Source of the DNA: Intoshia linei
Taxonomy: Eukaryota; Animalia; Orthonectida
Length of the DNA: 47,837 nt
Direction of reading: 5' to 3'
Assembly: GCA_001642005.1 (NCBI GenBank)
Contig: LWCA01000144.1
Coordinates: 1-47,837, forward strand
Below are positions 1,486 to 47,837 of this stretch, in pieces. The notes below the pieces were generated by a model that saw only the letters and a list, made by a program, of their open reading frames with translations, was not told the origin of the DNA and searched no databases. Position 1 is the stretch's first letter; each line of letters opens with the position of its first letter. The position numbers and the translations under genes were made by a program.

Positions 1486-4400
1486 GGTATATTGGAAGCG
1501 TTTAGTGCATTTGGATTAATGATTGGTGCACCAGTTGGAGGACTACTGTATAAGGTACTGGAGGTGCCGAATCTACCATAGTCAGAGACGCCTTTTCGGG
1601 GCCTCTAAGAAATTTTGTAAATTGTAAATTGATCATTGAAAAAACTATATTCTTGAATATCATAACTATTTCGTGTGGTCAATTTAAAATGTCAAGTCAA
1701 CAGTCTTGGAGAAGTGGCTGGAAGTATATCACTAAGCATCGTTTGCGAATTTTTATCTTTAGGATCTATTTTTCCTTTTTGTGCTGTCTAGAACTTGGTA
1801 GGTTCGTCTCTGGGTACTGATTTAATGTTTGAAATTTTTTTTAATTATGTTTATTTATATACAGGTTGGAGGCTTTCAAAACACTTTTTTTATAATTGGT
1901 GGAAGTATGATACCTATTTGTTTTATAGCTTCAATTGTATTGTCCAGGAGCAATTTAAGTACTTTTTATTCATATTCATATTCTTATTTTATGTTTATTT
2001 ATTGTAACCTCTTAGAAATGCATCAAGAACCAACTCCATTTGCAAACAAAGTATCCACCGGAAATTTTTACCTTAGATTTAATAACGTCATCATATCTAT
2101 AATTATAACAATGTCGTTTTGTAGTACAGCATTTATAGACTCAATTTTATCATTCCATCTAAAGAAGAGAGTATGCTTAATCATTTTCACATTTTAATCG
2201 CATTTTATTATAAGAATTGTTGAGTATATGTGTCAATTTTGTAGTTTTTATACTCTACAGATCAGGGGTTCCAAACTTATTTAGTATACCGTCAGTGGCG
2301 TTCTAAGATTTTCCACCAATGGGGGGAAGCGAAATAATTATTAGAGTTAAACTCATGTAATGTATTTAAATTTGAATTTTTATATTTTGTTTATTGATAT
2401 ATTTCTTTATCTATAATAATTTATATTTTTTTTCTAGTTTTCATTCCAATAAATTTTTCAACTCCTACATAAAAATCGATATTTTTGGGCAGGTTCTCTT
2501 TCGGTTATTAACAACGTTAAGTCCAATAATTTATCTTAAACTAATTTTGAACTCCGATAACAAATTAATATGCATAAAACGTAAACAATGATAACAATCA
2601 TAATTCAATAAATGCAATTTGATGGGTCTAAGAAATTTTTTTTCATATTACACAAAGTTAAAATACAAAATCAAAATATTTTAGGGACACATTTGTCACG
2701 CCAGGGGGTGATCTACTACTGTCTACCGCCCCTTTTTAGAAATATGTTTTCAACACCTCTTGAAAAAATTTCGACTATGTTGTATAATATATTATACTAG
2801 GTTGGCTGTTATGGACTGCGTACAAACACCACTTAGTTCTGCCGATGGCACATTTTTATTTTAATAAAAAAATAATCTAACTTAAAAATCCTACTATTCA
2901 CTATTAGCAATACATTAAAGCATGGTTCCCAAACTTGTTCCAGGTGGAACCGTCATATCACATTACTTTTTTCTTTAAAGTGAATTATTCCATTTTGTTT
3001 TGTTAACAGTTGTGTAAAGAATTTTAAGAACAATGGTTATCCCATATTTTAATTTATTAGACAGAATGTGTGTATAATATTAAAAATAAAGTAAAAACAG
3101 TCCAATACTAAAAATTGTCATAAAGGTGTGAGTTTTGGAAATTGAAATTTATATTATTATATGTAAAAATTGTCATAAATAGCATAAATTCCAGAAAAAA
3201 TAAAATTGTATAAAAACCTATTTTGTCATTTTCAATGTGATAATTCAGTATCACTTTAATAAATACTTAAAAATACCAATTATGTATCTATTATCTTTAT
3301 TTTTATAGAAATATTTGAAAAATATTGGTTGATAATATATTAAAAATTATTTTTCACCGGGAATGCGTAGATTTATGGGGTTAAAATTTTGAATTTATAT
3401 CAACTGGAATAAGCTCTATCACAATAATTTTTTTTTAAATTTTCGGGTAGTTGATTATTTCGCATTTTTTATTTTAATAAAATATTTCGGAAAAAAATAT
3501 ATGAATATTAAAGTACTTTTTTGACAGTGAAGGCGTCACTTATTTAGATTGAAATTTTTTTAAATTCTAGGACTGTTTTCATTAAAAAGAAAGATTTTCG
3601 CTCTAAAGATTTATTTTTTTTAAATTTAAACTTATGATAATATTTATGATTTTAAAATCCGTGTCAGTGTATATTTTTTTAAATTCTCGAACTCGTTTGA
3701 TTTTCAAAAAAAGGACAATTGGACTTTTTGACCCGTAAGATGTGAGGTTGGGAGGTTGAAATTTATCTTACTAACAAACCCGAAAAAACTGTAATAGAAA
3801 TGTGGACTTTATAAAATTCTAATCCTGGTAGTTATTAAAATAAACGATAACACACACAGACAAACAAACTATATTATATAAGTAAGGATTACAATGTCGC
3901 TGTTTTTCTCAGTGGATCCCAAACTTGGTATAATAACTCCACTTACAACAAAAAATTCATCAACGCCCACTCTATATTATATTAGTATATTACTACCACA
4001 TCATATTCTTTAAAATCGCCCGTAACTGAATTACCTAACTGTTATCGCCCACTTTAGGAACCCTTAATCTAGAATCTAAATAAATATATTTTCTTGTGAC
4101 GTTTAGAATATGTATATTTTAACAGGGGTCCAATCCCTATTTTTTCAGATATGTCAAATTTATATTTTTAAACCGTTCATATTACATTTCTAGTTTGATT
4201 TGGACGAATTATACATTGGCTTAATTTTTTTTATTCCACCATTTACTTATTGTATCACTGCTCCATTCTTAGGATATATTGCAGATAAAAAGGTTTATAT
4301 TTTATTTTATCGTTGATTAAAAACGAATCTTTTATAATAATAGGGTTTAGCTTATACTATAATAGTATTAGTACATATGTACAAATTTATAATTGTTTTC

Positions 4401-7400
4401 TGAATTTATTAGATTAGGTTAGATGTATTTCTTTTTTAGCTGTAATGCAGTGGTTCCCTATTTTTTAAGCATACTCAGGCCATTTCATATAAAAAATTTT
4501 AATATAATTTCAAACATTTAAAGAGCATAAATCTGCTCCCGATAGTTAGGCCAACAAAGGTATAATGACATATTCTAATACGCAAAACTAGTCAGTGAAA
4601 TCGCTTTATCAAATAAGAATTTTTCACGTGATTTTCTTGCGATTTATTTCATTTGTGAATCACTGATACATTAAATGTTTTGTGCTGTTTTAGTAGTACT
4701 ACAGTTTATATTCAAGTAAATGTAATTATTTATTTAGCCTGGACTATTATGGCCATTTGTCTTCTCTGGTTTAATAATAATAGCTATAAGTATCATGTTT
4801 TGTAGTCCACCACAATATTACAAAATACCCGAGTAATTGAATTTTTTAACATTATAATACAGTGATGACAACCAAACCAGCAAACTGCCAACACTGAACA
4901 CTAATCGACATTTTGACATTATTTTCAGAATATTCTAGTTAAGTAAAAAATTATTTAAGAAACAATCCTTAGTGTGTTGTGACTCGTACTTATGCTAAAT
5001 TTCATACTTTGGTGAGAGAAAACTTAGTAAATATTATTTTATTAGTGTTATTAATTAATTAAGTAAACATTTCACAATGGGATCAGTGTAGGAAGGTAAC
5101 TCTGTTTAAAGAATTTAAGATATTAATGAAGATGAGTCACTTTACTTAAAATATCGAGTATAAGTGAATTTAACTAAATAAAAATCAAATCTACGTATAA
5201 ATCTATAATTCAAAATTGATATCAGGGCTCAGAGTCTGAATTTCAGACTGTGTTTACCATGGGCCGGTAATTTTACCAATTAATTGTGTCAATTTTTTTA
5301 CAGGCGGCTGAAATATAATTTATAACATAAACTATCAAAATATTACCATGAATTTTCATTTGTTAAAATTGGTCACCTGAAGTATATATTTATTTATAGA
5401 AATTGGGATAATTGAAACATTTTAATTATATATGAAACAATATAGTTCACTACCGTTACTTTGTATTTTCTTGGGTTTTCAAGGAATTGGATTAGGTATT
5501 TGTTTTGCTGCAACACAATTGATTAAATTGGAAATGGAGTAAGTTTTCAAAATATAAAAATATACTCAACTTATATTACAGATAAATGTATATTTAGAAA
5601 AATTGATACCAAAAAATCATTGCATAATTATGGTGTTGTTTCAGGATACATAAACACATTTGTTAGTTTGGGGTAATTTACTATACATTTTATATTAAGT
5701 AATGATAATGCACTTATTAATGAAACTAAGTATGGATTAGTTGAGTGATTCCCAACCTGTGGGTACACACAAGTGAGTAATTTGATATTTTTCATGGGTA
5801 GTCGTAAACTTGTTCCAAATAAAATAGGATTTTTTTATTTTTTCTGTGTCGCATGCACTATAACGTATATAATATAATTTTTCTTAAATGATATTATGTT
5901 AAATAATTTTAATAATAAAATGTAGTAATGTAATAAATGAATATTGATTCATACAATTTTACCATAGTAAAAAAAAACGGTTTTCAAGACAGCAATGTGT
6001 ATCGTTTACACATACAGTAAACTATGCGTTATAAGAACAAAATAAAACAATTGTAACGAATGTTATTGTAGCAAATATAATATTCTACTTTTTACATTTT
6101 AAGTCATTTTAAAAAAGTTTTTAATTGTATTTTCCTTTAATATACTCCAACATTGCGATATTGTTTGAATTGCTTCGTTTAGATTGACACTGCAATGATT
6201 AATATCAAATGTTTCATTTTCCATATTCTTTTCGTCCATTTGAATCAATAAACGTTTGACTAAGCATTTCCGATATTCCTGTTTAATACATTTTATAATG
6301 GCAGCATTCAAGGGTTGGGTTTTACTTGTAGTATTTTTAGGGGAAAAAATTAATTTAACATTAGTTAAAACTTGCAATGACGAATTTAAATTTGTGCTTA
6401 TATCGAATTTATTTGTAGCTTATAACTAGGGCAATTTTTTATTGACCTATAGAATAACAAAAAAACTGACCTAAAAATTAAATTTACTGACTTTATCTGA
6501 CCTTAAAATTTTTGTTTGTTTCTATGGTTAATACCAACTGAATCTACCGTACCCCAAACCTTCTTTTCGTAGACCTTAAATCAATACAATATTTAATACA
6601 CCTTTGTAGTTGTAATGTTAATAAAGTACATACCTTATTCTCATTGTCAACACTCACATTATCACTCAATTCAAATCACATTAAAATCAAATTAAATAAT
6701 TTATTATAGATCACATATCTGTTACATTACAGTAGTATTTGTACGGCACAAGAATCGTAGATTAATGTTTTAATGCAGAAAATTATAATAAGATTTATAT
6801 TCTGCAGTGATTGATAATGAATTGTTTATTCGTGTGCTAAATAATAGAATTAGAATGAATAAATAATGGTTCATTTTAATATACAAATGAGTAACATGAG
6901 TTGTGATATGTTACAACCTTAATTTTAATATTCGCATAGGCCCCGATCATGATGGTGTCGGTCACTTTACATAATAAATTAATATGAATAAAACTTAAAA
7001 TAAGGAATATTTATGCGTGTAATAATAAATATGAATAACAAGGAACTGCAAATAAAACAAACGATGTAAATCTCATTGTGTAATGTTAGAGATGTTGAAA
7101 ATTATTAATTTTTATTGTAGTATAACATAATATACTTCTTAACATTATCTGGTAAAAATTGCCTCTGTTTAGTTAGCAATTTTTTGAACAAACTAAAATT
7201 AGGTTCAACACTATTGGTGGTAGATGCCGTTTTTCTTAATAAATTGTATAGATAAGATGGTATTTGTTCAATTTTATTGTTTATTATATCATAAATATCA
7301 TTATTTTAAGTCGAATATCTTTTAAAAAAAATATTGACTTTATGGCATTTAATGACTTTATAAATTGTTAATTAGCTAATTAATAAACATAATATTGATA

Positions 7401-10168: not shown

Positions 10169-10933
10169 TTATTCCTTTTTCATTTCTTTGAGGTTTACGG
10201 TTTTCAAATAGTTTTTTGCCGAGTTTATCTCTTCTATTGAAATTATCATTTGTCTTACACGTTCATGTTTTAAAGGATCTAGGATATCTGTAGTCGTTTA
10301 TAAATTACAATTTCAATTTATTTAAATTAATAGTCCTTAGAATTTGACTCAAAATTTAAAATTTTACTTGTACTAGTTACAATTACTTAATATTATTGTT
10401 TATTACTATTAATACAAATTTATAAACCGTGTCTCACGACGAATAGTACGTCGTCCAAAGAAACTCTATTCCTCTTTCCAATTTTTAGACATTTCCGGGT
10501 CTGCATCAAAGTATATATGTTGTAATATTTTAAAATTTATAAAATTCTAATACAAACCAAATTTCTAACAAATTCAACCATTAATTCTATCAATAACATT
10601 TCCGTCTCTTCGTGATATTCTTTAGTATCCCCAAACGCGTACATCATACTAACAACTAAAAACAAACTAAATACAACTAAAAATATAATATTTGTCACAC
10701 TGAACAAATTCAGCATATATCATGGGTTACTAAATTTTCGCACTAATAACCGTCAAGTTTATTGATAAATAACTTTGCAATATGTTCAATAATCATTGGT
10801 CACTCATAATTATAAGAAAATTTTTTATGAAACGCTTTATAAGTCAATTTAATCAAAACACACGGAATTTATCCAGTTTAGCTTCTTTATCAACATTTGT
10901 ACTCTTATAATGTTGTACAATTGCGAAAGTCAT
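10169..10933 (-). CDS. TAF13: TFIID subunit 13 (histone fold); 4 exons
   Basis: Exons 10933-10864 (tentative first exon), 10655-10558 (VSMMYAFGDTKEYHEETEMLLIELMVEFVRNL), 10500-10428 (TRKCLKIGKRNRVSLDDVLFVVRH), 10278-10169 (DPLKHERVRQMIISIEEINSAK, TAA). Matches TAF13 MMYGFGD / VEDIVFLIRKDPRK; short length favours TAF13 over SUPT3H. Absent from the ORF track. Confidence 0.88.
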
Positions 10934-11595: not shown

Positions 11596-13754
11596 CAGTA
11601 GTTTCTCGTTTATAAATACAAGAATATTTCTGTTAAGCTCTTTGAATATTTTTTTAAGCCTTATTTTCCAGGATTTGTTAAATGGGATTTAATTTACAAA
11701 TTTTTAAACAAGTTGTAATAAACTTTGAGCTTGATGTTGTAAGTCTTGGTAACCGCAAAACAATCTCGAATACAAGTTTATTCTACTAGCTATTTTAAAA
11801 CTTTATATTAAATATTTATACTAAATTAATATCATATTTCTTGGAATTTTTTAAAAAAAAATTAATTTGATTTAGTTATTATATCGACAGTGAAAACTAA
11901 AATTAGTATTTAACGTTTAATTATTTTTTTATAAAAAATTGACTTTAAGTACATTTATTATACAATAATTATATTGTATAACATTAAAAATATATACAAA
12001 ACCGAAAACTAAAAGTAGTAGCTTGAATATTTTACACTGAATGTTGATAATTATAACAATAAATATGTTGAAAATAAGATTAACCTTTAATTTTTATTAA
12101 TTAATTTGCATTTAAGACTATATAAGTTATTATAATCTGATTTCATTTTGTGTTTTTGGGTATATGCGATTAGTTTATCTACAGAACTTAGCATATCTTG
12201 CTTCTCATCCTCGGATATGGATGGTTCCGCATCGTCCGTATATAAAATTTGAGAATCATTCATAAGTTCAGAATCATCAATGTCCATAGACAGTTCTTCC
12301 CAACTAATAATGATGATCTTTAACCCTTTGAGGAATGCATTACACATATACATGTAAATTTAATTTTACGAAATTTATCCATTCCATCATTTTATAAAGA
12401 GTTTTTTACATTAATTTTGTAATAATTAGAATGATTGAATTTTTATATTTTGATATATTTTACCCTATTGTGCCAATTCTTGAAAGATGTAATGATGAAA
12501 TAAGCAAATTTCAGGTTTTACATATACACGTATTCATGAAATCAGTAGATTTTAGCCGATACGTATATAGGTTGATTCAAAATATAAGAAAATTTCAAAC
12601 GAAACATACATAAATGTATTCTTTGAATAACATAAACTACAATTGTTCCTTTTATTGTTAAATTTATTTATTTTATAGTCCAAAAGTAAGGGTACAGTGT
12701 TCGTAATTGAAGTTGAATTCATTGAACTCAAATATTCAATTAGATCCATCCTGTATTGCAAATGTGTTTTTACTTTTTGGGGGTCTTTAGACTAATAAGA
12801 TTCTTTAAGGTTCTAGACTAAAATTCTTTATATAATACATATGAATTATGAATTAACATGTGTATAATATAAATAGAAAATTTAACTGTTTATTTTTTTT
12901 ATATTGAGTAATCATATCTGGTTTCGTTATTGTTGAAGTTTTATGAACATTTTTGATGTTGTGGAATGTGGATATAAAGCAAAGCACTTTTTTATCATGC
13001 CATTTTAGTAAATTTATGCTATTTTTTTAGTAATATTCAATATCGTGTTTTTTAAGTTTATTAGTATTCACACACTTAGGAGGGCCTCTATTTTTTCTTA
13101 TTGTACCACAGCAATAAATTCCATTTTTCTTCATTTCAACGCAATTAGAGAAAGTATTGTAATAGTTATCCATATATAATTTATGGTTTTAATGTTCATA
13201 ATTTTTGGTTAGATTTTCGATTATATTGCTATCTCCAGTGTATAACATGATAGAATTTACAAACCCATTTGATGAATCTGCGCATATGTACATTTTCAAT
13301 CCAACTTTTATTGGCTTCATTGGGTTATACGTTTTAAAGTGAACACGGCTTTTAAATTGGATGATGCCCTCATCGATACTTAAATTTTCACTGGAAGAAT
13401 ATACTTGATGGCACAGTTCATTTATATAGGTTATTATTTTTGATGTTGCTTCAGGTATTTAGATTGGAATTAATTAACTGTCATTTTACGGGTCGAAATT
13501 GAAAATGTTTTCTTAAATTTTGACAACCAACGGTATGATTCACCATATACAATTTCAGATATAATTTTTAATTAACAGTTGTTGGTAATTGTTAGTAAAT
13601 AAATTTATAGCAATTCTTCGTTTGATGCACATAATTAAAATGAAAATAAGCAGACTTTGAGTGATAATTTATTTTAATTTGGCGCAATTATTTCACTCAG
13701 CGACAATTTCAAAATTGATGTTTTATTGCTGTATTTAATAACGAGAAACTACTT
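11596..13754 (-). mobile_element. pogo/Tigger-like transposon relic inserted in Helitron copy B
   Basis: TIR CAGTAGTTTCTCGTT at 11596 and its complement AACGAGAAACTACT near 13740-13753, TA on both flanks. CENP-B-HTH-like remnant ESYRWLSKFKKTFSISTRKMT (about 13480-13545, -) and acidic C-terminal remnant (12087-12319). Confidence 0.8.
12324..13445 (-). pseudogene. piggyBac transposon fragment with decayed DDD transposase
   Basis: - strand reads NLSIDEGIIQFKSRVHFKTYNPMKPIKVGLKMY...HKLYMDNYYNT...GTIRKNRG...KWHDKK...KPDMITQY...HNSYVLYK with in-frame stops. Third-Asp region is missing; CSLC remnant in ORF 12552-12761. Terminus TTAA|CCCTTTGAGG at 12320-12333. Confidence 0.92.
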
Positions 13755-14174
13755 TATTCCAATTTTTTAATTTATTAAACAGAATGTGTGTATAATATTA
13801 AAAATATAGTAAAAACAGTCCAATCCTAAAAATTGATATAAATAGCATAAATTCCAGAAAAAATAAAATTATAAAAACCTATTTTGTCATTTTGAGTGTG
13901 GTAAATCATTGAGACCTCTCATCTTCACCTTTATGATCAGTTTGCTTCTGAATGTAACTTATTTTTGCCATTTTATGTTAAATTTGAAACAATTATCAGT
14001 AATAAAATAACACGTTTAAGTTAGAATCAAAATTGAACTTATATAAATTCGTTGCTGTAGTGTTATAATTTAAATTTTATTCAAAATGTTTTGAAAATAA
14101 TAATTTGAAATTTGAAATTTAAAATTGCGTAGCAATGAAAAAAAATCAGAAGGAATAAGATATAGATTTTCACC

Positions 14175-14364
14175 TGTAACGATTGACAGATAAGAACTCT
14201 GATAAGTTCATCTTAAATAAAAAGATTTCCATATTTCGATTCGAACCTAACCACGCAGAATACAATTATATGACTAACCACTCTGCCAGTTAGACATCAC
14301 AAGTGAGTTATATCAAAAGTATATATTCGAATCTCGATTAGTATGATAGCGATATATCACTACA
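14175..14364. mobile_element. 190-bp solo-LTR-like element containing tRNA-type A and B boxes
   Basis: TGTAACGAT...ATCACTACA termini, 5-bp TSD TCACC (14170-14174, 14365-14369), absent from the matching site of Helitron copy E (about 25531-25560). AATAAA at about 14216. Confidence 0.75.
14237..14288 (-). promoter_or_regulatory. RNA polymerase III type-2 internal promoter-like sequence (degenerate tRNA)
   Basis: - strand TGGCAGAGTGG (A box), 30 nt spacer, GGTTCGAATCG (B box). A D-arm TGGC/GTCA can pair; other arms are decayed. Confidence 0.65.
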
Positions 14365-15584
14365 TCACCCATATTTCTTTATTGGAAATGTGTAAATATG
14401 TAGAAATTGTAGGATCAATATTTACATTTTCAATTTGTATTTTAATCGAAATATTTGAAAAATATTGGTTGATAATATATTAAAAATTATTTTTACACCG
14501 GGAATTCGTAGATTTCTGGGGTTTAAATTTTGTATTTATATCAACTGGAATAAGCTCTACAGAATAATTTTTTTTTAATTTACCGACCGTTAATTATTAC
14601 ACATTGTTTTAATAAAATATTTCGAAAAAAAATACATAAATACTAAAATGCTTTTTTGACAATGAAGGCGTCACGTATTCAGATGGAAAATTTTTGTGTG
14701 TGTTAACAGGATACAACTGTAAAACTATAAAATTTTTTAAATTCTAGAGCTGTTTTCATTAAAAAAAAGTGTAATTTGTGGTTTTGGCCCTGAAGATATA
14801 TATTTTTTTAAATTTAAATTTATGATTTTAAAATCCATATTACAGTGTATATTTTTTTAAATTTTCGAACTCGGCTTTTTCACGCATAAGATATGAGTTT
14901 AATTAAAAATTAATTAATTATAAATTATTACCCTGTAATTTAAAGATTAATCTGAGAAGTTTCCATATATTTTGTTCTATAATTTTTTAGTTTTGTACAC
15001 GGCAATAGTGTTATCGTTAAATTGGTAGGTAGAAAATTTTCCACGACGACTCCTGATTCGATTTATATTATTCTTTTAAATTTATATACATTGATTTTTA
15101 GTGTTATCAAAAACGGTGAAAAAAAGTGTTTAAAAGAAATTGAACAGCATAAAATATGTTTAAGGGATTTGGGATTTAAAGTTTAATAAATTCTACGTTA
15201 CATTTCTTACATTTAAATTATAATATTTTGATATAAAATTAAATATCACTATCACTCCACCTTGTTTACACAAACTGCAAGTAGGTCAGACTTCATCTTA
15301 ACCCGCCTATCTCTTTAAATATGCTGAAATAGCATTGATAATTATGTGTGTATCAATTTATTACAACACTGTATGCTGTAAGTGTATGTACTACATAAAG
15401 TACTGAAAAACGTAACGTGTTAAAATGTATATCATTATAATCCTCTTAGGGATATTTATATTTATTATTCTCAGGCGATTTTTTTATCTTACTTCACAAA
15501 ATATATAATCTAATACAGAATTTTTAAGGTCAAAAATGATTCTTCGTTATTTAATTAAAATTTTAAAGTCCTTTTCTTAAATTT

Positions 15585-16272
15585 GGAGATTAATTAATTT
15601 CTCAGTATTTAATTAAAATACTGACATTTTTTAATAAAAAATTTTCTGTATTTTACAATATAAAATTGTCAGTATAGACACTAAAATATCAGTAATAAAA
15701 AGTATTTTGTCAGCAAATATATTAACTAGATCAGTATTCATTGAAAATTGTAAGTAACTCAACAAAAAAGTATATAGAAATAAACACATTTTATAAAATA
15801 ATATTTTGTCAGTAAAAAAATTGAATTGTAAGTTTGATGATTTTGGAGTGGCAGTATAAAAATTAAAAATCTAGTTTTTGAAAATTGAATGTAGTTATGT
15901 CAATCCCTTTAATCTTTTTCATCTTTCTTGTCTTTATTATTATCCTTGTAAGGTTAATAATTAGGTTAATCTTATTAAATACTTTATATAATAATATCAT
16001 CCACTACAGACTGAAATATTAAGATACCATATTATACCTACAAACTAAATTACAAAAAAATTAGAAATATTCTATGGTGTTCACACTAGAGAATATTTTT
16101 TTATGAGAACAAATTATGTATATTAATATGTTAATTAATTGTGTTAGTATTTTTCTTATTGATTTGTCATTATTTTTAAATATTTTTTAGTATTGTAGAT
16201 GGTTTGTCAGTATTTTAGGTGCCTGTACTGACAAATCAATAAGAAAAATACTGACACGATAAATGCACGCCC
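15585..16272 (-). repeat. TGTCAGTA-rich dispersed element, inverted copy of 26207-26840, with a terminal foldback
   Basis: Reverse complement matches 26207-26840 over several hundred bp. 16140-16170 and 16229-16258 are inverted copies of each other. Confidence 0.8.
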
Positions 16273-16340: not shown

Positions 16341-17166
16341 CTAGTTTAACTGGTTTGTACCACGTACAAATAGTACCTATCTCTGCCGACGGCGAACTCT
16401 TTTAATTTTACCACGAAAAAATTAAATTAAATTAAGTGTTATATAGGCATCTCACGATTACCAAACATGTTACAATTCACATTTAAATTTTTTTTTAAAT
16501 TGTAGGATGAATATTTACTTTTTAATTACAAAAATTTAAAAAATACTCATTGATAATGTATAAAAAATTATTTTTCACCGGAAATGCGTAGATTTCTGTG
16601 GTTGAAACTTTGTATTTATATCAACTGGAATAAGCTGTATTAGAATAATATTTTTTTTAATTTTAAGACCGTTAATTATTTCAAATTTTTTTTCTTGTAA
16701 TAAAATAGTTTCGAAAAAAAATATATGACTACTAAAGGTCTTTTTGTGACAGTGAATGCGTCACTTTTTCACATTGAAATTTTTTCTGTGTGTTAACTGG
16801 ATATAAATGTATCACCTGTATTTTTTGTTAAATTCTAAGACTGTTTTCATTAAGATTAGATCAAAAGGGTAATTTGTGGTTTTCGTCCTGAAAATATATT
16901 TGTTTTAAATTTAAATTTGTGATTTTAAAATCCGTATCAGTATATTTGTTTTAAATTCTCGAACTCGTTTAATTTTTAAAAAAAAGGACAATTGGGCTTT
17001 TTGACTGTAAAATGTGAGTTTGGGAGGTTAAAATTTATTTTGTTAACCCTCGGAAAAAACTAAAACTGAAATGTGGACTTTATAAAATTCTAAGACTGGC
17101 AGTTATTGAAATAAACGGTAAAACACACACAAACAAATATGGCGTAGCATATTATATAAGTAAGGA
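16341..17166 (-). mobile_element. Helitron copy C
   Basis: + strand A|CTAG at 16341 and TATATAAGTAAGGA|T at 17166; body matches copy A. Confidence 0.8.
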
Positions 17167-17415
17167 TACATAACGATATAAGGATGTATAGCGATTTTTA
17201 TAATTATTATACTTCAATTTTTAAATATTGAAAAACTGATAGAGTAGAAGCCTCATATCCTGAATACATTGGGACAGCACTTTTGAACACTCTTAATGTA
17301 CATAATATTATTTTACAATTATTTTAGAATTTAATGATACAACCATTCACAATGATAATAATATAAACTAATATAATTATAATATATTAACTTGTTCCAT
17401 TTCATCTATATTATC

Positions 17416-20400
17416 TTACAATCTTTTTACGTAATGCTTCTTTTTGTCATATGCTCGTCGATTCTAATTTTAATTAAGATTAATTTACAGTAAGCGTCAT
17501 GTATCAAGTTATGTAAAAAATTGTATTTTTTGTTATAAATTAAGGTTTACATATATAATTTGCAGGTAAATGTATGACCGTTGAGTAATTTTGATTATAC
17601 TATAATCAATTAAAAGTCATTCTAATTAGAGTATTCACACTTTGAAAAATTTTGGGTTTTAAAAGAACTTTAAGTACATTGTGTTTATGTTCATATGAGA
17701 ATTTTGATGCATTTAAAGAATTTTTATATGACATTCGATAAACACCCTGCCAAAAAAATTTACAACAACATTTTCCCTATTTACTAAATAGTTACTACAC
17801 AATAATTTCCAATTATTTTACATATCGTAAAACATCCTACAGTATTATAATAAAACCTGATACCACACCTGAACCACTCGTATATCCAAACCTAAAAATT
17901 AAATATAAAGAATCAAGTCAATTTTAATGATTTAAATATTGTAAACAGTACTTTTTTTATCCCAAGTCAACAAGCAAGGCCAATCTGATCACCTCTTGCT
18001 CCTTTTTCATTTAGCAAAAGATTCTTATTTTTATCAGAAACTATTTTATATTTTCCCTGTTGGATTGGAATTTTAATTTGATAAATAAAATAATAATGAA
18101 ATATTTACTAAGTTTGCGATGTAGAGCTCAATAAAATGTTTGTTCCGATATAATCCATGAAACTCCATTTGGTTTCAACAAATAATTAAAAAAAATATGG
18201 CCGATTATCAAAGAGGAATTATTTTTCTTAGATTTGTTACTTAAAATACAATGCAGGATATACTATAAAGATTAAAAAATAATCACGTTAGTTAACGGTT
18301 TAAAAATAAAATTGCGATATTGCCAATTTGATGTTCCTGGTTTTCCCATTGAATGGTAAACTGATGTAGATTCTAGAATCAGATTATGTCACCAAACTTA
18401 CATATTTTTTGAGCAAATTTAAAATAATGAAAAATTGAATATTTTTATGTTCCAAATTTTATATATCTTATAATGTATATGGTACAATTAACCCTATCTA
18501 CTTTCAAAAAATACAATTGGTCCCAATTATGTAAACTATAAAATTATAAAATGCTTCAAGTTTTGAATTGTTTTCATTGGTTCGTTATAATTATGTGACT
18601 GCACCTGATTTCGGAGTCTACACATGCAAATATATTACCAATTTTTAAGCTAATAGCAATTCTTTTGCTTCTACTTGGTTTCCGTAATTTTATATATTCC
18701 ATTTGGAGGGCAACTAATTGCTTTGGAGAAATGGTTGTTCTGGCACGTTTCCCATTGTTTCTATCTACATGAATATTCTTTATTGTCAACCATCACTATC
18801 TGAAGTGTAAAATTCACTATTCAGATATATAAATAAATATATTTATATAGATTCAATCTCTATAAAACCCACTACAGAAAATAATTTATAATTTGAATTA
18901 CATATATCCTTCAGCTCACAGTTGTAACTAATCTTACTATACTTATTAATTTATAAAACATATGCTACGTAAGACGCCTAGAAAAAATTTCTTAAATTGG
19001 AAACGACAGTCCAAAGTTATTAATGTTTCAGTTTGGAAACATTGGAAGTTTTTCAACAAAAATAAAAGTTAAAATGTATTATTTATAAATATAAATTAAT
19101 TGTCATTTTTTACACAATTAACTACTCATTATAGCTGTTGAACGTTATAAATGATTAATTGGATCATCTCTTATTTATCAGGTCAAAATTTGGAACAAAT
19201 TCATATCTTTTAAGCTAACGTATGAATACCGGTAATTTAATTTGATGGTGTTTCATCAACACCATTATAATTCCATTTCGCTACTTTTGAAAATTACATG
19301 TTGCTAGTTTGGAAGATAACCTTTTATTATCAAGTTTTATTTTGATATTCTTCACCTACGTCGTTCATAAGAATAAAAACGGCTAAGAAATATAAATGGA
19401 AAACTTGCAAATCATGTAAAAGTAAATTGATGAATACTAAATTAAACTACTTACATTAGTAAAATCTTACTAAAAAAGTAGGAAACCTCCAATTTTATCC
19501 AAATACAGTAACCAATTATAGCAGTTTTATATTATTTTAAAATTAAAGTATTATAAATTTGATGGAAAATAATTTGTGGTCAAGCCAATATTCTAGTGAT
19601 AAAACTTCAAGATTCATTTGTGATGAAAAATTTTTTTTTTATATTATGTGTTCTTGATATAAATTTTACAAATTATAACCTAAAGTTGTTATGAATGACA
19701 ATATTGTTCAAAATTTGAACACCCTTTTACTTATTTTTCACGGTTTAAAGTCGTTTAAAAGTATAAATACGTTAGCTATAACTAAATTTAAAAAATGAAA
19801 ATGTTTAGTGAGAACATAGGATTCCATATAAAATCTGTTCATCTTAGTAACTACTATATTTCACTATTTCATCCAATAAAATTCAGTTTTAATTTTTCAC
19901 TAACATTTTTGTATGTAATCATAAAAATTGCGTGCGAGACTTCATTCGTGGTAAAAAAATTTTTTTTGGGTATTATGTGTTTTTGATACAACTTTTACAA
20001 ATTGTAACCTAAAGTTGTTAAAAATGAAAATATTTTTAAAATCTGAAACGCCCTAATGTACATTGTATAATGTACATTTATGTTGAATAAAATTACCAGC
20101 TTTTAAATGGTCCAATTTACCTAAATATGATGAAAATATTTAAATACAGTTTAAACCAGGGGTCGTCATTAGGATCAATGATAAGTTGGGATATGACCTG
20201 TTTCTTAAAATGCTCGTCTAACCAGAGCCGTTTTAAGGAATAAGTAATATAGACTGTAGCCCAGGGCCGCTAATTAAAAAAAGTCCCCAAATTAATAAAA
20301 GTACTTTACATTTATATCCTAAAAAGAGGCCCTAAATTTATTAAAAAATATTTCATTTATATTTTAAGAAACAGTTTATAAGTTTTGAAGTGTGTGAATT

Positions 20401-21907
20401 CAAATAGCTAGAAAGAAAATAGTTTAAAGAATAATAATTCTGGTAATTCCTTAATTTAAAATATATTATACAATGTTGATTATATAATATTGACATAAAA
20501 ATTGATTCAAATGATAATATTAAACATTAAAACCTTTCTATTAAGTGAATATTCAAAAAAGAAAGTAGGAAATCTTTGATTTTCTCTTATTAATTTTTAA
20601 TAAATTATGTAATTTTTTGTAAAAGAAATAAAAGTTACTAGAAACCTACATAATATCTATTAATGCATTTATTAATACTAAATAAAATAAGACTCTAAGT
20701 CTCCAACCAACAGTATGCCCTGTCTTCTAAAAACGGCCCTAAATTTTTTTTATCGCTTCGCTCTTTAAAATTTTAAAAAGTCTCCGGCTCTTTGCTAAGT
20801 CCAGATCCACGAAGTGGCTTAGTACGGCTTTGCGTCTAACGGCCTGTGAAAAATAAGTCGTATGAATGTACGTGCCCTTACATCTTTGTAAATAATGTAA
20901 TTGCAAAAAAATAATTTAAAAATGCATTTTTAATTAATTATACTGATAAATAAATTTAAGTTTATTCAAGTTTCTAGTAATTAATCAAATTAAAAATCAA
21001 ACTTATCAAACTCATCAAGTTAATTTTGAATAAAAATTATATTTCAACTTATCGTGTTTAACTCATCATGTATTCATTTCATAATCTACAAACTTATTTT
21101 TAATTTTAATTTTTTACAAGACTTATTATTATTACATCATTATTAGACAAATACTTTTTGTAATTTGGAATTAAAAATAAGAAACGTTCTTACATGTATG
21201 AAATAGTAAATGTATGTGGAAAGATTAAATTAAATGAATTACACAAAATGTTTCCATTTGATAAAGAATAAGTTTCTCCGCAATGAATTTTTTGCTTGCA
21301 CACCTTGCATTGAAAACACTAAATATTTAGTAACAGAGTTTTGGAAAAAATAATTTACGTCAACATGAAAATAATTATTGAGACTTTTCATAATCATCTC
21401 TGAGTTTTTAATCCTTTTTTGGCAATTAAAGCATTTTATATGATGAAACCTAATCAAATAAAATTAAATCACAACATAGGTGGATAATTTTGGCTATGTG
21501 AACCACCAGTATTTTTCACTTGCGAACCTCTGATTTACATAAATTTAATGATAACAGATATAAATAAAAATTGCCATAAAATGTTGTTTAATAAGCCGAA
21601 TTAATATGAAAAAAAAACTAGTCCCTGAATGTTATATAAATATTTTATATTTATAAAAATATATAAATTACTTTTGATAGCAAGTTAAACAAAAGAGACC
21701 GTTTTGATGTTGAAAACAATTAATTTCTAAATTGTTGTAACAGTTTGAACATTTTAAACAATTTTGATGAAATATTTTATCTTGAATTTTACAAAAACAA
21801 ACGTCTAGAATTATAAATTGACATTTTGCACAAATGAAGTTGACTAAATTGTCATCAACTTTTTTATAATTATTAAATTTACCGAAATTTTCATAATTTT
21901 TTTCCAT
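17416..21907 (-). CDS. LHX3: LIM-homeodomain transcription factor, Lhx3/4-like
   Basis: LIM1 exon 21907-21672 (CAKC...FHQNCLKCSNC...FCLTCY); LIM2 exons 21449-21359 and 21318-about 21243 (CFNC...FHVD|CFQCKVC); homeodomain exons 18764-18639 (KRARTTISPKQL...KPSRSKR), 17891-17857 (GLDIRVVQVWYQ), 17463-17416 (NRRAYDKKK, TAA). Linker exon(s) unresolved. Subfamily inferred from RTTI, KPxR and GLDxRVVQVW. Confidence 0.85.
20223..20832. mobile_element. hAT-type MITE in an Lhx intron
   Basis: CAGAGCCGT...ACGGCTTTG termini; perfect 8-bp TSD CGTCTAAC (20215-20222, 20833-20840). Confidence 0.8.
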
Positions 21908-22340
21908 TTTAAATTAAATTAAATTAATGTGCCTTAGCTTAATTCCATATAATTTACGACAATAATAAAATAAAATATTATTGTTTCAATCTCGCACGAT
22001 ATAAATTTTGTCCAATGATTAATTCTAAAATTATTGATTATATTTAATCGATATTTTTTTTATTTGATAAATATCGAAATATGAATATGTAGCATGCAAT
22101 GTAAATTTAAAGAAAAATCACAATATCACTGATCCAAACTCATAATTCAGGATTTATGGCGTCTATTTCACCAACTTGTCTAATTTTATCAACGTTTTCT
22201 TGTGTTTAATAGCTTTTTTATAATGTCACTGGTATAATTCCGTCAAGTTTACACTAACTTCAATGATATCATGTATTTATATATGATTAATATGTTTTCG
22301 TATTTACATTTTATTGTAAAATTATAATTTTATAATGTTA

Positions 22341-22902
22341 CTATATTGACTTTTATGTATTACGTACAAACAGCACCTAGCTTTGCCAACGCCACATTTT
22401 TATTTTACCAAAAAAATAAATTCACGTTCAAAATCTAACTTAAAAATACTACTATTCTCTAGTATCAATCCTTTAAAAGAGTGGTTCTCAAACTTGTTCA
22501 GTTCACTTATTCAGATTGAAATTTTCTGTGTGTTAACAGGATACAACTGTATCACCTGTAATTTTTTTGAAATTCTAGGGCTTTTTCCATTAAAAAAAAG
22601 GGTAATTTGGGGTTTTGGCTTTGAAGATATATTTTTTTAAATTTAAATTTATGATAATATCTATCATTTTATAATCCGTACCAGAGTGTGTATTTTTTTA
22701 AATTCTCGAATTTGTTTGATTTTCAAAGAAAGGACAATTGGGCTTTTTGACCCGTAAGACATCAGTTTGGGAGGTTGAAATTTTTTTAACAACACCCCGG
22801 AAAAAGTGCAATTCAAATGTGGACTTTATAAAATTCTAAGTCTGGTAATTTTTGAAATAAACGATAAACATAAAACGGTAAAGTATATAATATAAGTAAG
22901 GA
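22341..22902 (-). mobile_element. Helitron copy D, internal deletion derivative
   Basis: Both ends present (CTAG mutated to CTAT; AGTAAGGA|T). Junction near 22500 joins segments that lie several hundred bp apart in copies A and F. Confidence 0.75.
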
Positions 22903-24037
22903 TAATAATTATGATTGCATTATATTTATTAAGTTATCAGGATGTTTGGATATAAAAAACAAAAAAACTGATGTAACTGATTATAAACATGTGAGTAAAT
23001 GGTATATGTCTTATTTTCAATTTTTTGCTGGTCACACATACAATTTGATGGACGCATGGGTTGATATATACTATTCAAATGATTGAGGCGTAGGTATTGG
23101 GGAAGCTGTGATTCCTAAAATTTCTCTTTTTGTAGCAATGTTTTTATTTAAAAATATTTAGAATCCATAAGATTTTTCAAATTTAATTAATCTATACATT
23201 AGCTTTGCTTTTATAAATTGTTAAAAAAAGATTTAAAACATACTGTAACTCAATTATTCGATTAAATCAGGGATTCCTACAGTTTTTTCACAGTGAACCG
23301 TTAATTAACTATAAAATTTCACCGACCGGTAAAATTATTTCACGGACCGGCATTTGGGCATGACTTGATAAAATCATAATTTTTTTGGACATACAATTAT
23401 TAGCTTAAACCCGTTTCTCCTTAATATTTAAAAAAAATTTTTATCAATCAGAACTCAATTTATTACGTTTTTTATTAATTTTTTTAATGTTACCTATAAA
23501 TTGCGATTTAATGATCCACGATAAATTTTAATTTAATTTATTAACGTTCCGCCGTTAAAAACCTGTGGTAATCAAATATAAAGCATAATAATAATACAAA
23601 TTGTGAATTTTAAATCAATTTTTAAAAATTATCAATTAACGACGATAAAAAAAAGCTGATTTAAATTAGCCACCTTGACGGATCAATATTTATAAGATTG
23701 TATCTCAATTTAATTTTATTTTGTCACCATCCATGAACAGAGTTGCCTGTACGTCATTGTTTCCCAAACTTTTTTATGCTAAACCCACTTTTATTCTTAA
23801 AAAATCCCAGGTGTCACTTCCAAAAATGATTTAACACCAGTTGCTATTTTGGGCTGATATAGCAATTCAATCAATAATTAATTATTGCCGCATACTAAAA
23901 AAGTAAAAGACTAAAAGAGTGACCGAGATAGATCAATTTAGAAATTAAGAAATTCAATTTGAAACATTAGTTGTCTTTACTTATAGTAAGTAAAGTTAAC
24001 TTAAGTAATTTAATTAAAAATTTGTCTGTTTATTTAA

Positions 24038-24330
24038 GAAAGTAAGGGGATACGAGTTTTAAAAATATTACATTTCTATTAAACTTTTTCGAGGATAATG
24101 CTTTATCGCAAATTTGATTTTCACAAATGGAGCCTTTCAAGGTCAAAAACACAAATTATTATTTTTTTTTAAATTCAAACGAGTATAAGAATTACAAAAA
24201 ATACACAATCTGATAAATATTTGGAAACCATCTACATAATGATATATTTAAATTTTAAAATCATACATAATCACGGCTAGAACTGCAAATTATTATTTTT
24301 TGTAAAAATGAAAAAAGTCCTAGAATTTTA
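24038..24330 (+). repeat. Dispersed repeat, second copy at about 30851-31140
   Basis: Shared GAAAGTAAGGGGA...GAGTTTTAAAAATATT...TCGCAAATTT...TTTAAATTCAAAC...TTTTGTAAAAAT in both places. Boundaries approximate. Confidence 0.6.
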
Positions 24331-24338
24331 TACATGTA

Positions 24339-26206
24339 CTAGGTTGACTGTTATGTACTACGTACAAACAGGACCTAGCTTTGTCGAAGGCACATTTTTA
24401 TTATACATAAAAAATAAATTCACGTTGAAAATGTAATTTAAAAATCCTACTATTGACTATTATCAATCCTTTAAAGGAGTAGTTTCCAAATTTGGGCCAG
24501 GTGGAATCATCATATCACATTACTTTTTACTTTAAAGTGAATTATTCCATCTTAATTTTTTGTTTGTTAACATTTGTGTAAAAGAATTTTTAAAACAATT
24601 TTTATCTCATTTTTTTATAATTAAAAATATACTTTATTAATATAAAAAAATCTATGCTATCCGAATCTATTAAATATATACAATGAAAAAAAGTACAGAT
24701 ATAATTTATGTATATTTCGTATAATATTATAATTGCAATTAAAATGATATTAATTAACTTGTGCATAAAACAACGGGTTAAATTGCAATAGATAGTACAT
24801 TTTAAATATTAATTCATTCATAAGGTTAATAAAAGTATATGCAAATGTGTATTGATATAATTATAAAAAATGAATTATTATAATTCTGTTCTGCTATACT
24901 AGTCCAGTACAATTACTAATTGATCAACGACCTTAATATAAAGATTTATTTCATTACGGAATTTTGACATTTATTTAACAAATGGAAACACACAACAGAA
25001 ATAAGGATTGGTATGTTGAATTCCCTAATAAAACTATTATGTCGTTTTTAAGTGGTTTTAGTTTCGTATTTACAAAATTTTAAATATAGTAATAATTTTC
25101 TATAAAATTTTAACTATAAATTCTGTCATAAATACAATTTTGGGGCGAATTTATTGTAAAATTACTAATTTTTTATTCACAAATTCTTACTAAAATTCGT
25201 TAAAGTTTAATATTTGTGTATTATCATAATCTGGATATGGCCAAAGACTACTGTATACAAATATATATTATTATTGGTTTAAGCTGTTTTTGATATGGCC
25301 CGTGTAGGACCGGACAAGAAAACTCGCGTACGGCAATTTTGCGGGTACAAAAATTTTAACAATATTGCAAAAGATTGTAATAAATATAAAAATGATAATA
25401 ACTAAGTTGTATTACTTTTAGTAATTCGTTTGCGTAGTTTTAATTAAAACTTTGAACAAAATGTTTTGAAAATTAGAATTTGACATTTAAAAAATTGCGT
25501 AGCAATGAAAAAAATTCCGAAGTAATGGATTATATAGATTTTATAACATATCTCTTTATTGGACATGTGTAGACGTTCAATGCACCTTTTATTTTAAAAT
25601 TGTAGGATAATTTTTCATTTTCAATGTTTATTTTAAAATATTTGAAAAATCATGGTTGAAAATATGTTAAAAATTATTTTTTATTAGGAATGCGTAGATT
25701 TCTGGGGTTCAAATTTTGTATTTATATGAATTTGAATAAGCTCTGTCAGATTAATTTTTTTTTTAATTTTTGGAAATTTGATTATTTAACATTTTTTGTT
25801 TTAATAAAATATTTCGGGAAAAAATATATGAATATTAAAATGTTTTTTTGACCGTGAAGTCGTCACTTATTCGGATTGAAATTTTCTGTGTGTGTTAACA
25901 TGATACAACTGTATCACCTGTAAATTTCTTGAAATTCTAGGGCTTTTTCCATTAAAAAAAAATGTAATTTGGGGTTTTGGCCCTAAAGATATATTTTTTT
26001 AAATTTTCGAATTTGTTTGATTTTCAAAGAAAGGACAATTGGGCTTTTTGACCCGTAAGACGTCAGTTTGGGAGGTTGAAATTTTTTTTGCTAACACCCC
26101 TGGAAAAAACTGTAATTAATATGTGGACTTTATAAAAATCTAAATTTGGTAGTTATTGAAATAAACAAAAACACACACACAGAGACAAACAAAGCATATT
26201 ATATAA
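24339..26206 (-). mobile_element. Helitron copy E, interrupted
   Basis: CTAG and hairpin at 24339-24379; family sequence to about 24610, resuming about 25345-26206. The 5' end is cut by the TGTCAGTA-rich element. Confidence 0.75.
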
Positions 26207-26840
26207 AGGCGTGCATTTATCGTGTCAGTATTTTTCTTATTGATTTGTCAGCATTGGGGATAGTTTGTCAGTAGAAATATTGATTTTTCAGTATTGTAGA
26301 TGGTTTGTCAGTATTTTAGGTGCCAATTGACAAGGTTTCAGTATAAATAATTGATTGTCAGTATTTAAATTGAATGTTTGGTATAAAATGAAACTGACAA
26401 AAAATTTTATTTCATAAAAAAATATTCTCTGGTGTGAACACCATAGAATATTTCAAATTTTTGTATTAATATGGTTTGTAGGTATAATATGGTATCTTAA
26501 TATTTTAGTTTTAACTTGGGTCTGTAGTGGATGATATATTATTTCAAAAACTAGATTTTTAATTTTTATACTGACACTCCAAAATCATCAAACTTACAAT
26601 TTAATTTTTTTACTGACAAAATATTATTTTATAAAATTTGTTTATTTCTATATATTTTTTTGTTTAGTTACTTATAATTTTCGATGAATACTGATCTAGT
26701 TAATATATTTGCTGACAAAATACTTTTTATTACTGATATTTTAGTGTCTATACTGACAATTTTATATTGTAAAATACAGAAAATAATTTTTTAAAAAATG
26801 TCAGTATTTTAATTAAATACTGAAAAATTAATTACTCCAT
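26207..26840 (+). repeat. TGTCAGTA-rich dispersed element
   Basis: Begins AGGCGTGCATTTATCGTGTCAGTA; many TGTCAGTA/TACTGACA motifs in both orientations. Other copies at 15585-16272 (inverted) and about 31640-31900. Confidence 0.8.
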
Positions 26841-46585: not shown

Positions 46586-46842
46586 CTGTAAATACACGGT
46601 TAAAATTTATTTTAATCAGTAGTTTCCATATTATGATACGAGCTATCATACTCAGCTGAAATATATTCCATTTCATCTAACAATTTATTTGACAAGTGAT
46701 CTAATTCAATTTATACTGAAACATCATAAAACATGAGAGTTCCATGCCCATATTTACAGGTCGGATTTATATTGTTTTCTTTTGACACATCATTTGACAC
46801 ACGTCACACAAATACTTTTGTATTATGTTTAATATAATTATA

Positions 46843-47837
46843 TCCTTACTTATATAATAGTCTTTTTTGTATGTAGATGTGTGTATTACACACTGTGTAA
46901 TCGTTTATTTCAATAATTACCATTTTTAGAATTTTATAAACTGTACATTTCTATTACAGTTTTTTTCAAGGGTGTTAGCAAAATAAATTTAAACCTTTCA
47001 AACTCACATCTTACGGGTAAAAAACCACAAATTACACTTTTTTTTAATGAAAACATCCCTATAATTTAACAAAAATACAGGTGGTACAGTTGTATCCTGT
47101 TAACATACACAAAAAATTTTAATTTGAATAAGTGACGTCTTCACAATTAAAAAAGAATTTTAGTATTCATATATTTTTTTTCTGAAATATTTTATTAAAA
47201 CAAAAAATATGAAATAGTTAACGGTCCGAAAATTTAAAAAAATGATTACTCTGATAGAGCTTATTTCATTTGATATAAATACAAAATTTCAACCCCAGAA
47301 ATCTATGCATCCCGTTAACAAATAATTTTTAATATATTATCAACCAATATTTTTCAAATATTTCGATTAAAATAAAAATGAAAAATGTAAATATTAATCC
47401 TACAATTTCAAAAAAAATGTGCATTAAACGTCTACACATTTCCAATATATATGAAAATTTATATAATTCATTCCTTCGCAATTTTTCAATCTCCAATTCT
47501 AATTTCCATTATATTTTGTTTAAAATTTAAATTAAAACTACCACAACAATTACTAAAAATAATACAATTTTGTTATTATCATTTTTATATTTATTAAAAT
47601 CCTTTCCAATATTGATAAAATTTGCCTAAATATGTTTATAAAGTGAAGATTCTGTTAATTATTGATATATAATTAGTATTTTTAAGTATATATTAAATTA
47701 GTACTGAGTACATCTCATCACATTAAAAATGACAAAATAGATTTTTGCAATTTTATTTTTCTGCAATTTATGCTATTTGTAACAATTTTTAGGATTGGAC
47801 TGTTTTTACTTTATTCTTAATATTATACACACATTCT
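46843..47837 (+). mobile_element. Helitron copy G, runs off the window end
   Basis: A|TCCTTACTTATATAATAG 5' end; body is the reverse complement of copies A, B and E. Confidence 0.8.

What the first reader, a model, noticed from the sequence alone, without database searches (positions are those of the whole stretch)
14170..14369. Solo-LTR-like element with an internal tRNA-type Pol III promoter: candidate small-RNA-derived TRIM family
Seen: a 190-bp insert with TG...CA ends, 7/9 terminal inverted match, exact 5-bp TSD TCACC, an empty site in a sister Helitron copy, and A box TGGCAGAGTGG plus B box GGTTCGAATC at tRNA-like spacing on the - strand. Established: TG...CA with a 4-6 bp TSD marks LTR integrase products; Cassandra TRIMs carry 5S-derived Pol III promoters in their LTRs, and as I recall tRNA-bearing non-autonomous LTR elements (Ajax) have been described in a few animal groups. 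Inference: this is the solo LTR of a miniature non-autonomous LTR retrotransposon that may use Pol III, possibly unreported in this lineage. Best candidate for a novel system in the window.
Basis: partly seen in the sequence, partly recalled or inferred. Interest (0 to 1): 0.8.

Follow-up and report, generated by a model that had tools for sequence, protein, structure and literature searches.

The report
Orthonectid solo LTR with tRNA boxes
A 190-base repeat with retrotransposon-type ends and tRNA-gene promoter boxes is scattered through the genome of a tiny parasitic worm; it is likely the leftover end-piece (solo LTR) of a miniature hitch-hiking retrotransposon of the published Helenus type, and it is unusual only in its host lineage and in making 5-base rather than 4-base insertion scars.

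Summary
Observation confirmed. Window 14175-14364 is a 190-bp TG...CA insert with an exact 5-bp duplication (TCACC). The host repeat has one TCACC at its empty site. Public contigs show a dispersed family with fixed ends: 15 unlike left flanks and 29 right flanks in one run, and a second copy with another 5-bp duplication. On the minus strand, A box, B box and a T5 run lie as in a tRNA gene; the box pair arose in 0 of 20,000 shuffles. The window is an Intoshia linei (orthonectid) contig.

It differs in that the listed animal Helenus families make 4-bp duplications and no orthonectid is listed.

Not shown: a full LTR-internal-LTR copy (only a polypurine-tract-like G run and one weak PBS-like flank), Pol III transcription, a tRNA fold. 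The boxes are no better conserved than the rest in three diverged copies.

Verdict: a new variant of a known kind, of modest interest.

The parts
14170..14174 (.). left target-site duplication TCACC
   Evidence: sequence; single TCACC at the empty host site in 18 X1 and 4 X2 contigs
14175..14364 (-). 190-bp solo LTR-like element, TG...CA; sense strand inferred to be minus
   Evidence: sharp family ends at 14175 and 14364; orientation from the boxes, the T5 run and a G run next to the minus-strand start in other copies
14365..14369 (.). right target-site duplication TCACC
   Evidence: sequence
14320..14325 (-). TATATA, 31 nt upstream of the A box (possible TBP/TFIIIB or Pol II TATA; function untested)
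14278..14288 (-). tRNA-type A box TGGCAGAGTGG
   Evidence: all 63 viral-collection matches to the A+B pattern are ARAGORN tRNA genes
14238..14247 (-). tRNA-type B box GGTTCGAATC
14219..14223 (-). T5 run, Pol III terminator-like, 14 nt after the B box; a T run at this place is also seen in published animal Helenus LTRs
   Evidence: compare
14246..14294 (-). predicted long hairpin over the box region instead of a cloverleaf
   Evidence: z -3.1 in a 61-nt window chosen after seeing it; z -1.2 in the 87-nt window; the plus strand gives z -2.9
14028..14169 (+). host AT-rich dispersed repeat, left part (a further piece at 13758-13908)
   Evidence: self-BLAST
14370..14873 (+). host AT-rich dispersed repeat, right part

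Best explanation
This 190-bp TG...CA repeat with 5-bp duplications and tRNA-type A and B boxes is likely the solo LTR of a small non-autonomous LTR retrotransposon of the Helenus type (TRIMp3), which would be transcribed by RNA polymerase III and moved by a helper retrotransposon's proteins. Shown: fixed ends, 5-bp duplications at two loci, many dispersed copies, and the order TG - 76 nt - A box - B box - T5 - 44 nt - CA on the minus strand. Inferred steps: (1) in a full-length copy, TFIIIC binds the boxes of the 5' LTR and Pol III starts shortly upstream of the A box (about 14300-14310 in this copy's numbering); (2) most transcripts stop at T5 as an ~80-90 nt RNA, some read through PBS, internal part and PPT and stop at T5 of the 3' LTR, which gives the terminal redundancy needed for reverse transcription; (3) a helper whose integrase makes 5-bp duplications packages, reverse-transcribes and integrates it (Copia, BEL or a 5-bp Gypsy clade; TSD lengths for BEL and Gypsy recalled); (4) LTR-LTR recombination leaves the solo LTR seen here inside an older AT-rich repeat. 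This copy cannot move by itself.
For: Ends and TSDs. Second TSD: run X5 record 26 spans 14175-14365 and both its flanks abut the element with TTGAG; the 75-nt loose end fits the record's length. Dispersal: in X1, 15 contigs leave at 14175 (agreement 0.47) and 16+8+5 at 14364/14365/14362 (0.47-0.64), of 157 laid. Boxes beyond chance; 63 of 63 matches to the box pattern in viral contigs are tRNA genes. Same layout as published animal Helenus LTRs: TG start, boxes in sense, T run after the B box...TTACA end, length inside their 104-323 bp range. Helenus families known only as solo LTRs exist. PPT hint: the loose end of 2 X6 contigs behind 14364 starts with five C, i.e. G5 abutting the minus-strand TG, as in wasp Helenus PPTs; C5/G5 occurs at 1e-4 per base in the window. 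The sense strand has no AATAAA.
Against: No joint from one LTR end back to an LTR start was listed (2 joints; 15 shown and 5 hidden), and no clear TGG primer site appears in any listed flank. The G5 cell merges 2 contigs. The boxes are hit as often as the rest in three diverged copies. Two contigs skip the A box (X1) or both boxes (X3). No Rfam tRNA match at E<=10, no ARAGORN call at 80-95% thresholds, and the inter-box stretch is not tRNA-like beyond chance against 41 distinct viral tRNA middles (p 0.71). The A box reads TGGCA, not the TRGCY of most Helenus. All animal Helenus with a determined TSD have 4 bp.
Confidence: 0.65

Rival explanations
1. Solo LTR of an ordinary autonomous (or large non-autonomous) Copia/BEL/Gypsy element, transcribed by Pol II from the TATATA, whose LTR once captured a tRNA fragment that is now a passenger.
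For: 5-bp TSD, unlike animal Helenus. TATATA at 14320-14325. Boxes not preferentially conserved. Box-less contigs exist. No short internal part found. LTR elements make up 1.3% of this genome (PMC7943196 source data).
Against: No AATAAA on the sense strand; the only one is on the plus strand, upstream of the TATA in that reading. A T5 follows the B box as in Helenus. The window copy keeps both boxes intact. No RT or integrase remnant among 141 window ORFs of 48 aa or more, which is uninformative for a solo LTR.
Confidence: 0.22
2. Non-autonomous DNA transposon (MITE) with TGT ends and 5-bp TSD, of the TDD-4/TDD-5 (Ginger2) kind, carrying a tRNA relic.
For: TDD-4/5 have 5-bp TSDs and Ginger termini follow TGTNR (PMC2836005 passages). 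Only single units were seen.
Against: The inverted match is only 7/9 and 8/12, whereas metazoan Ginger2 have 50-180 bp TIRs and 4-bp TSDs. A G run abuts one end in some copy.
Confidence: 0.06
3. A tRNA-derived SINE, or a SINE nested by chance in this one LTR copy.
For: A and B boxes at tRNA spacing. Two contigs lack part or all of the box segment.
Against: Both ends are fixed with TG/CA and there is no tail. The boxes start 76 nt inside. Whole-length records of other loci carry the box segment (X1 record 1, X2 record 9, X5 record 26, X6 record 19). SINEs are 0.001% and LINEs 0.02% of this genome by RepeatMasker.
Confidence: 0.04
4. The boxes are chance look-alikes in an ordinary short LTR.
For: No cloverleaf, no Rfam or ARAGORN call. 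The region folds as a hairpin instead.
Against: 0 of 20,000 shuffles (strict pattern) and 2 of 20,000 (loose pattern) give the pair. Spacing and the downstream T5 also fit.
Confidence: 0.03

Closest known systems
Animal Helenus (TRIMp3), Kojima 2024, PMC10886601; e.g. Helenus-1_LiLo, Helenus-1_EuAn, LTR-11_DR (main text parts 1-4 of 6 read; supplement parts 1, 8, 10, 11 of 11 and two term searches)
   Same: Short TG...CA LTR (104-323 bp); tRNA-type A and B boxes in sense, followed by a T run; ends in ...TTACA; G-rich PPT; solo LTRs occur.
   Different: 5-bp, not 4-bp, TSD. Host phylum not listed (no Orthonectida or Annelida in Table S1; 'Intoshia' 0 hits). None of five short motifs occurs in the published sequences. 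A box TGGCA rather than TRGCY. No recognisable cloverleaf. Internal part not found.
Fungal and plant Helenus (e.g. LTR-1_PTrit, Helenus-1_SMo)
   Same: tRNA-type boxes in the LTR, 5-bp TSD, G-run PPT directly abutting the LTR, families known only as solo LTRs.
   Different: Kingdom. The Copia dependence argued for them rests on PBS similarity, which could not be tested here.
Ajax (nemertean TRIM, PMC10886601) and Cassandra (plant TRIM; PMC7215508 and PMC12486564, passages only)
   Same: Pol III promoter inside a short LTR; 5-bp TSD. Ajax shows that 5-bp TRIMp3 exist in spiralian animals.
   Different: Their promoter is 5S-derived (box A, IE, box C); here it is tRNA-type (A + B).
tRNA-derived SINE2
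   Same: Internal A and B boxes.
   Different: Fixed TG...CA ends, fixed-length TSD, no tail, boxes far from the 5' end.

Membership tests
Helenus (TRIMp3) | LTR with TG...CA ends and a 4-6 bp TSD | tested here: met
   TSD read at 2 loci
Helenus (TRIMp3) | tRNA-type boxes in the LTR (YGG in box A, GGTTC in box B; TRGCY in most) | tested here: met
   YGG and GGTTC present, fifth base of TRGCY differs; beyond chance
Helenus (TRIMp3) | tRNA-like similarity beyond the boxes (Censor or tRNAscan-SE hit) | tested here: inconclusive
   no Rfam or ARAGORN hit; no similarity to viral tRNA middles; tRNAscan-SE and the organism's own tRNAs not available
Helenus (TRIMp3) | two LTRs around a short non-coding internal part | tested here: inconclusive
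Helenus (TRIMp3) | PPT before the 3' LTR and PBS after the 5' LTR | tested here: inconclusive
   G5 abutting the sense start in a 2-contig cell of X6; one low-depth X4 flank resembles a Glu-type PBS of Fig S2 at 8/10 by eye
Animal Helenus | 4-bp TSD | tested here: not met
   5 bp at both readable loci, versus 4 bp in all animal families with a value
TRIMp3 | Pol III transcription from the boxes | not testable with these tools
   only contigs of unrecorded library type
TRIMp3 | promoter boxes more conserved than the rest of the LTR | tested here: not met
   three diverged copies: 5 substitutions + 1 insertion in the boxes against 5-6.5 expected; table cut at 40 of 53 rows; decay after insertion would hide selection, so power is low
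Ajax / Cassandra | 5S rRNA-derived promoter (A, IE, C) | tested here: not met
   no 5S match in Rfam; B box present instead
SINE2 | tRNA head at the 5' end, variable tail and TSD | tested here: not met

The most novel reading that the evidence does not exclude
An independently born tRNA-type Pol III TRIM in orthonectids: the first animal Helenus-like element that rides a 5-bp-TSD helper (Copia/BEL-like), in a genome almost free of SINEs and LINEs. Its promoter would then come from direct capture of a tRNA fragment during reverse transcription, not from the SINE insertion proposed for Helenus; a related box-less short form (run X3 joint) could be the ancestor. The alternative source is transfer from the nemertean host lineage (host recalled), which has both Helenus and the 5-bp Ajax.
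Probability: 0.15. Interest if true: 0.6.

Novelty: new variant of a known kind. Interest (0 to 1): 0.33.

Why it matters
It extends tRNA-promoter LTR elements to a highly reduced parasitic lineage and breaks the published pattern that animal Helenus make 4-bp duplications, which points to a different helper. That supports repeated independent origin of TRIMp3. Because this genome has almost no SINEs or LINEs, it is a useful test case for the idea that such elements arise by SINE insertion. Practically, dozens of A/B-box copies could act as stray Pol III promoters in a compact genome. The design itself is published, and similar solo LTRs were noted in other genomes of this scan (unchecked notes).

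Tried and rejected
No whole genome is held, so copy number, TSD census and full-length copies could not be read directly. Exact-pattern scans of metagenome contigs with either end: 0 and 0. No RNA holder listed; library types are unrecorded, so nothing is concluded on expression, and contig depth was not used as copy number. Rfam: nothing at gathering level in the window, only chance hits at E<=10, so no tRNA, 5S, hammerhead or twister match. Relaxed ARAGORN calls were rejected as noise (167 in the window at 70%). Isotype assignment from viral tRNAs was rejected: 48 of 63 are Ser, but the middles do not match, and these are not animal tRNAs. The TSD-plus-TG...CA pattern alone was rejected as evidence. 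Pfam on 14 + 127 window ORFs found no retroelement protein. No earlier scan note on this sequence or genome. No paper describing this element or orthonectid LTR families turned up; subscription papers (including the genome papers), Repbase and Dfam were not searchable, and 9 of 21 supplementary files of PMC7943196 were not searched. The host species could not be confirmed (listing only). Transfer from nemerteans has no support: their Helenus and Ajax LTRs share only the generic layout by eye.

Full report
Observation. The window holds a 190-bp insert at 14175-14364 that begins TGTA and ends TACA, with 7 of 9 terminal bases inverted-matching and TCACC on both sides. That pattern alone is common here (132 cases), so I looked for independent evidence. 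Two sister copies of the surrounding AT-rich repeat lack the insert. Their own letters at the site differ, but 18 contigs of public run X1 and 4 of X2 carry the empty site with one TCACC, so the duplication is 5 bp. The element occurs once in the window.

Origin of the window. A homolog search returned a protein named Intoshia linei A3Q56_01753 on a single contig of 47,837 bases, and it maps as two exons to the window. The window is therefore orthonectid DNA; orthonectids are reduced parasites placed within annelids (PMC6543705, passages).

Family. Of 157 X1 contigs laid on 14160-14380, 15 leave at 14175 and 16, 8 and 5 leave at 14364, 14365 and 14362, with low agreement among flanks (0.47-0.64; 49 further rows not shown). 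That means fixed ends and some tens of loci, as a lower bound. Whole-length records exist in X1, X2 and X6 (probably one locus, 23 differences) and in X5 (9 differences). The X5 record is flanked on both sides by TTGAG, a second 5-bp duplication. Only these two loci had readable duplications. Most laid contigs differ from the window copy at four positions and one small insertion, all outside the boxes. Two contigs skip the A box (X1) or both boxes (X3), so shortened forms exist.

Promoter-like part. On the minus strand the order is TG, 76 nt including TATATA, A box (14288-14278), 30 nt, B box (14247-14238), 14 nt, T5, 44 nt, CA. The strict box pair appears once in the window, in 0 of 200 shuffled windows and 0 of 20,000 shuffled elements (box patterns from recall). 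All 63 matches to this box pair in viral contigs are tRNA genes. It is not a working tRNA as far as the tools show: no Rfam match, no ARAGORN call above noise, no similarity between the boxes, and the region is predicted to fold as a hairpin. Against a promoter under selection: in three diverged copies identified by depth in the variant table, the boxes took 5 substitutions and 1 insertion, against 6.5 expected under uniform divergence (about 5 if differences private to the window copy are discounted).

Is there a full-length element? No contig was listed that runs from one LTR end back to an LTR start. Two hints favour a longer parent in the minus orientation. The loose end of two X6 contigs behind 14364 begins with five C, i.e. 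a G run abutting the sense-strand TG, like the PPTs of wasp and fungal Helenus; such runs occur at 1e-4 per base in the window. One low-depth X4 contig has, next to the other end, a GC-rich flank that matches a Glu-type PBS of Kojima's Fig S2 at 8 of 10 by eye; this was noticed after the fact and is weak. Whether the internal part is short (TRIM) or long (autonomous) is open.

Mechanism. Shown: ends, duplications, dispersal, box layout. Inferred: a full-length copy is transcribed by Pol III from the 5' LTR, mostly stopping at T5; read-through RNAs end at the 3' LTR's T5, so start-to-T5 is the repeated region; a helper LTR retrotransposon with a 5-bp integrase copies and inserts it; recombination leaves solo LTRs such as this one. 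A T run after the B box is a regular feature of published animal Helenus LTRs, and Cassandra LTRs also carry Pol III promoters and terminators (PMC7215508, PMC12486564, passages). Confidence 0.65. The main rival (0.22) is the solo LTR of an ordinary Pol II element with a captured tRNA relic. MITE, SINE and chance readings are minor.

Comparison with known systems. This element works like Helenus by layout and length. Membership is not proven, because the internal part is missing from my data, and it fails the 4-bp duplication of animal Helenus; 5 bp is the fungal/plant Helenus and Ajax value. No orthonectid or annelid family is in Table S1 and five short motifs found no match in the published sequences. 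A RepeatMasker survey gives this species 1.3% LTR elements, 0.02% LINEs and 0.001% SINEs, with 30% unclassified (PMC7943196 source data). Helpers are therefore plausible and a recent SINE donor is not evident, though unclassified repeats could hide one. Searches found no description of this element; Repbase, Dfam and subscription papers were not searchable. Papers seen otherwise: PMC13524379 (one passage), PMC2836005 (passages), PMC7943196 (passages and one data file).

Verdict. A real, dispersed, Helenus-like solo LTR family in an orthonectid, with 5-bp duplications: a new variant of a known kind. Interest 0.33. The boldest reading not excluded is independent origin by direct tRNA capture with a Copia/BEL-like helper (probability 0.15, interest 0.6).

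Noticed in passing
window 2788-3983, 13758-14873, 16487-17173, 22323-22909, 24019-24618, 25351-26200, 36671-37594, 46841-47837: A family of AT-rich dispersed repeats with conserved ends (a CTAG-bearing start; an AC-rich tract before the end) that resembles insect Lep1-type non-autonomous Helitrons (recalled). Repeats cover about 11 kb of the window, yet rolling-circle elements are only 0.005% in the published survey.
   Followed up: partly
window 13030-13458 (-): piggyBac-like transposase remnant (Pfam DDE_Tnp_1_7) in two frames, just left of the host repeat.
   Followed up: no
window 6102-6419 (-) and 4855-4935 (-): DDE_1 transposase remnant whose first part is annotated as a spliced 58-aa host gene; the gene model may be an artefact.
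   Followed up: partly
window 14983-15183 (+): Weak COX17 Pfam match (E 2e-6) about 110 bases after the host repeat; the translated frame was not inspected and the match may be spurious.
   Followed up: no
window 18577-18792 and 21671-21913 (-); 30356-34478 (+); 10540-10719 (-): Exons of a LIM-homeobox gene, a Slo/BK-type potassium channel and a TFIID 18-kDa subunit-like protein.
   Followed up: no
window 15588-15883 and 26542-26837: A 296-nt inverted pair, 96% identical and 10.7 kb apart: a young repeat family.
   Followed up: no
window 31343-32047 and 39047-39349: Elements built of 29-bp tandem units arranged as long inverted arms, foldback-like.
   Followed up: no
window 14231-14334: A run X3 contig skips 102 nt including both boxes; the skipped part is bounded by a short direct repeat that overlaps the B box. 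It is either a deletion derivative or a box-less relative.
   Followed up: partly
window 14346-14363 and 14184-14206: Short predicted hairpins just inside both ends of the element on the minus strand; significance not tested.
   Followed up: no
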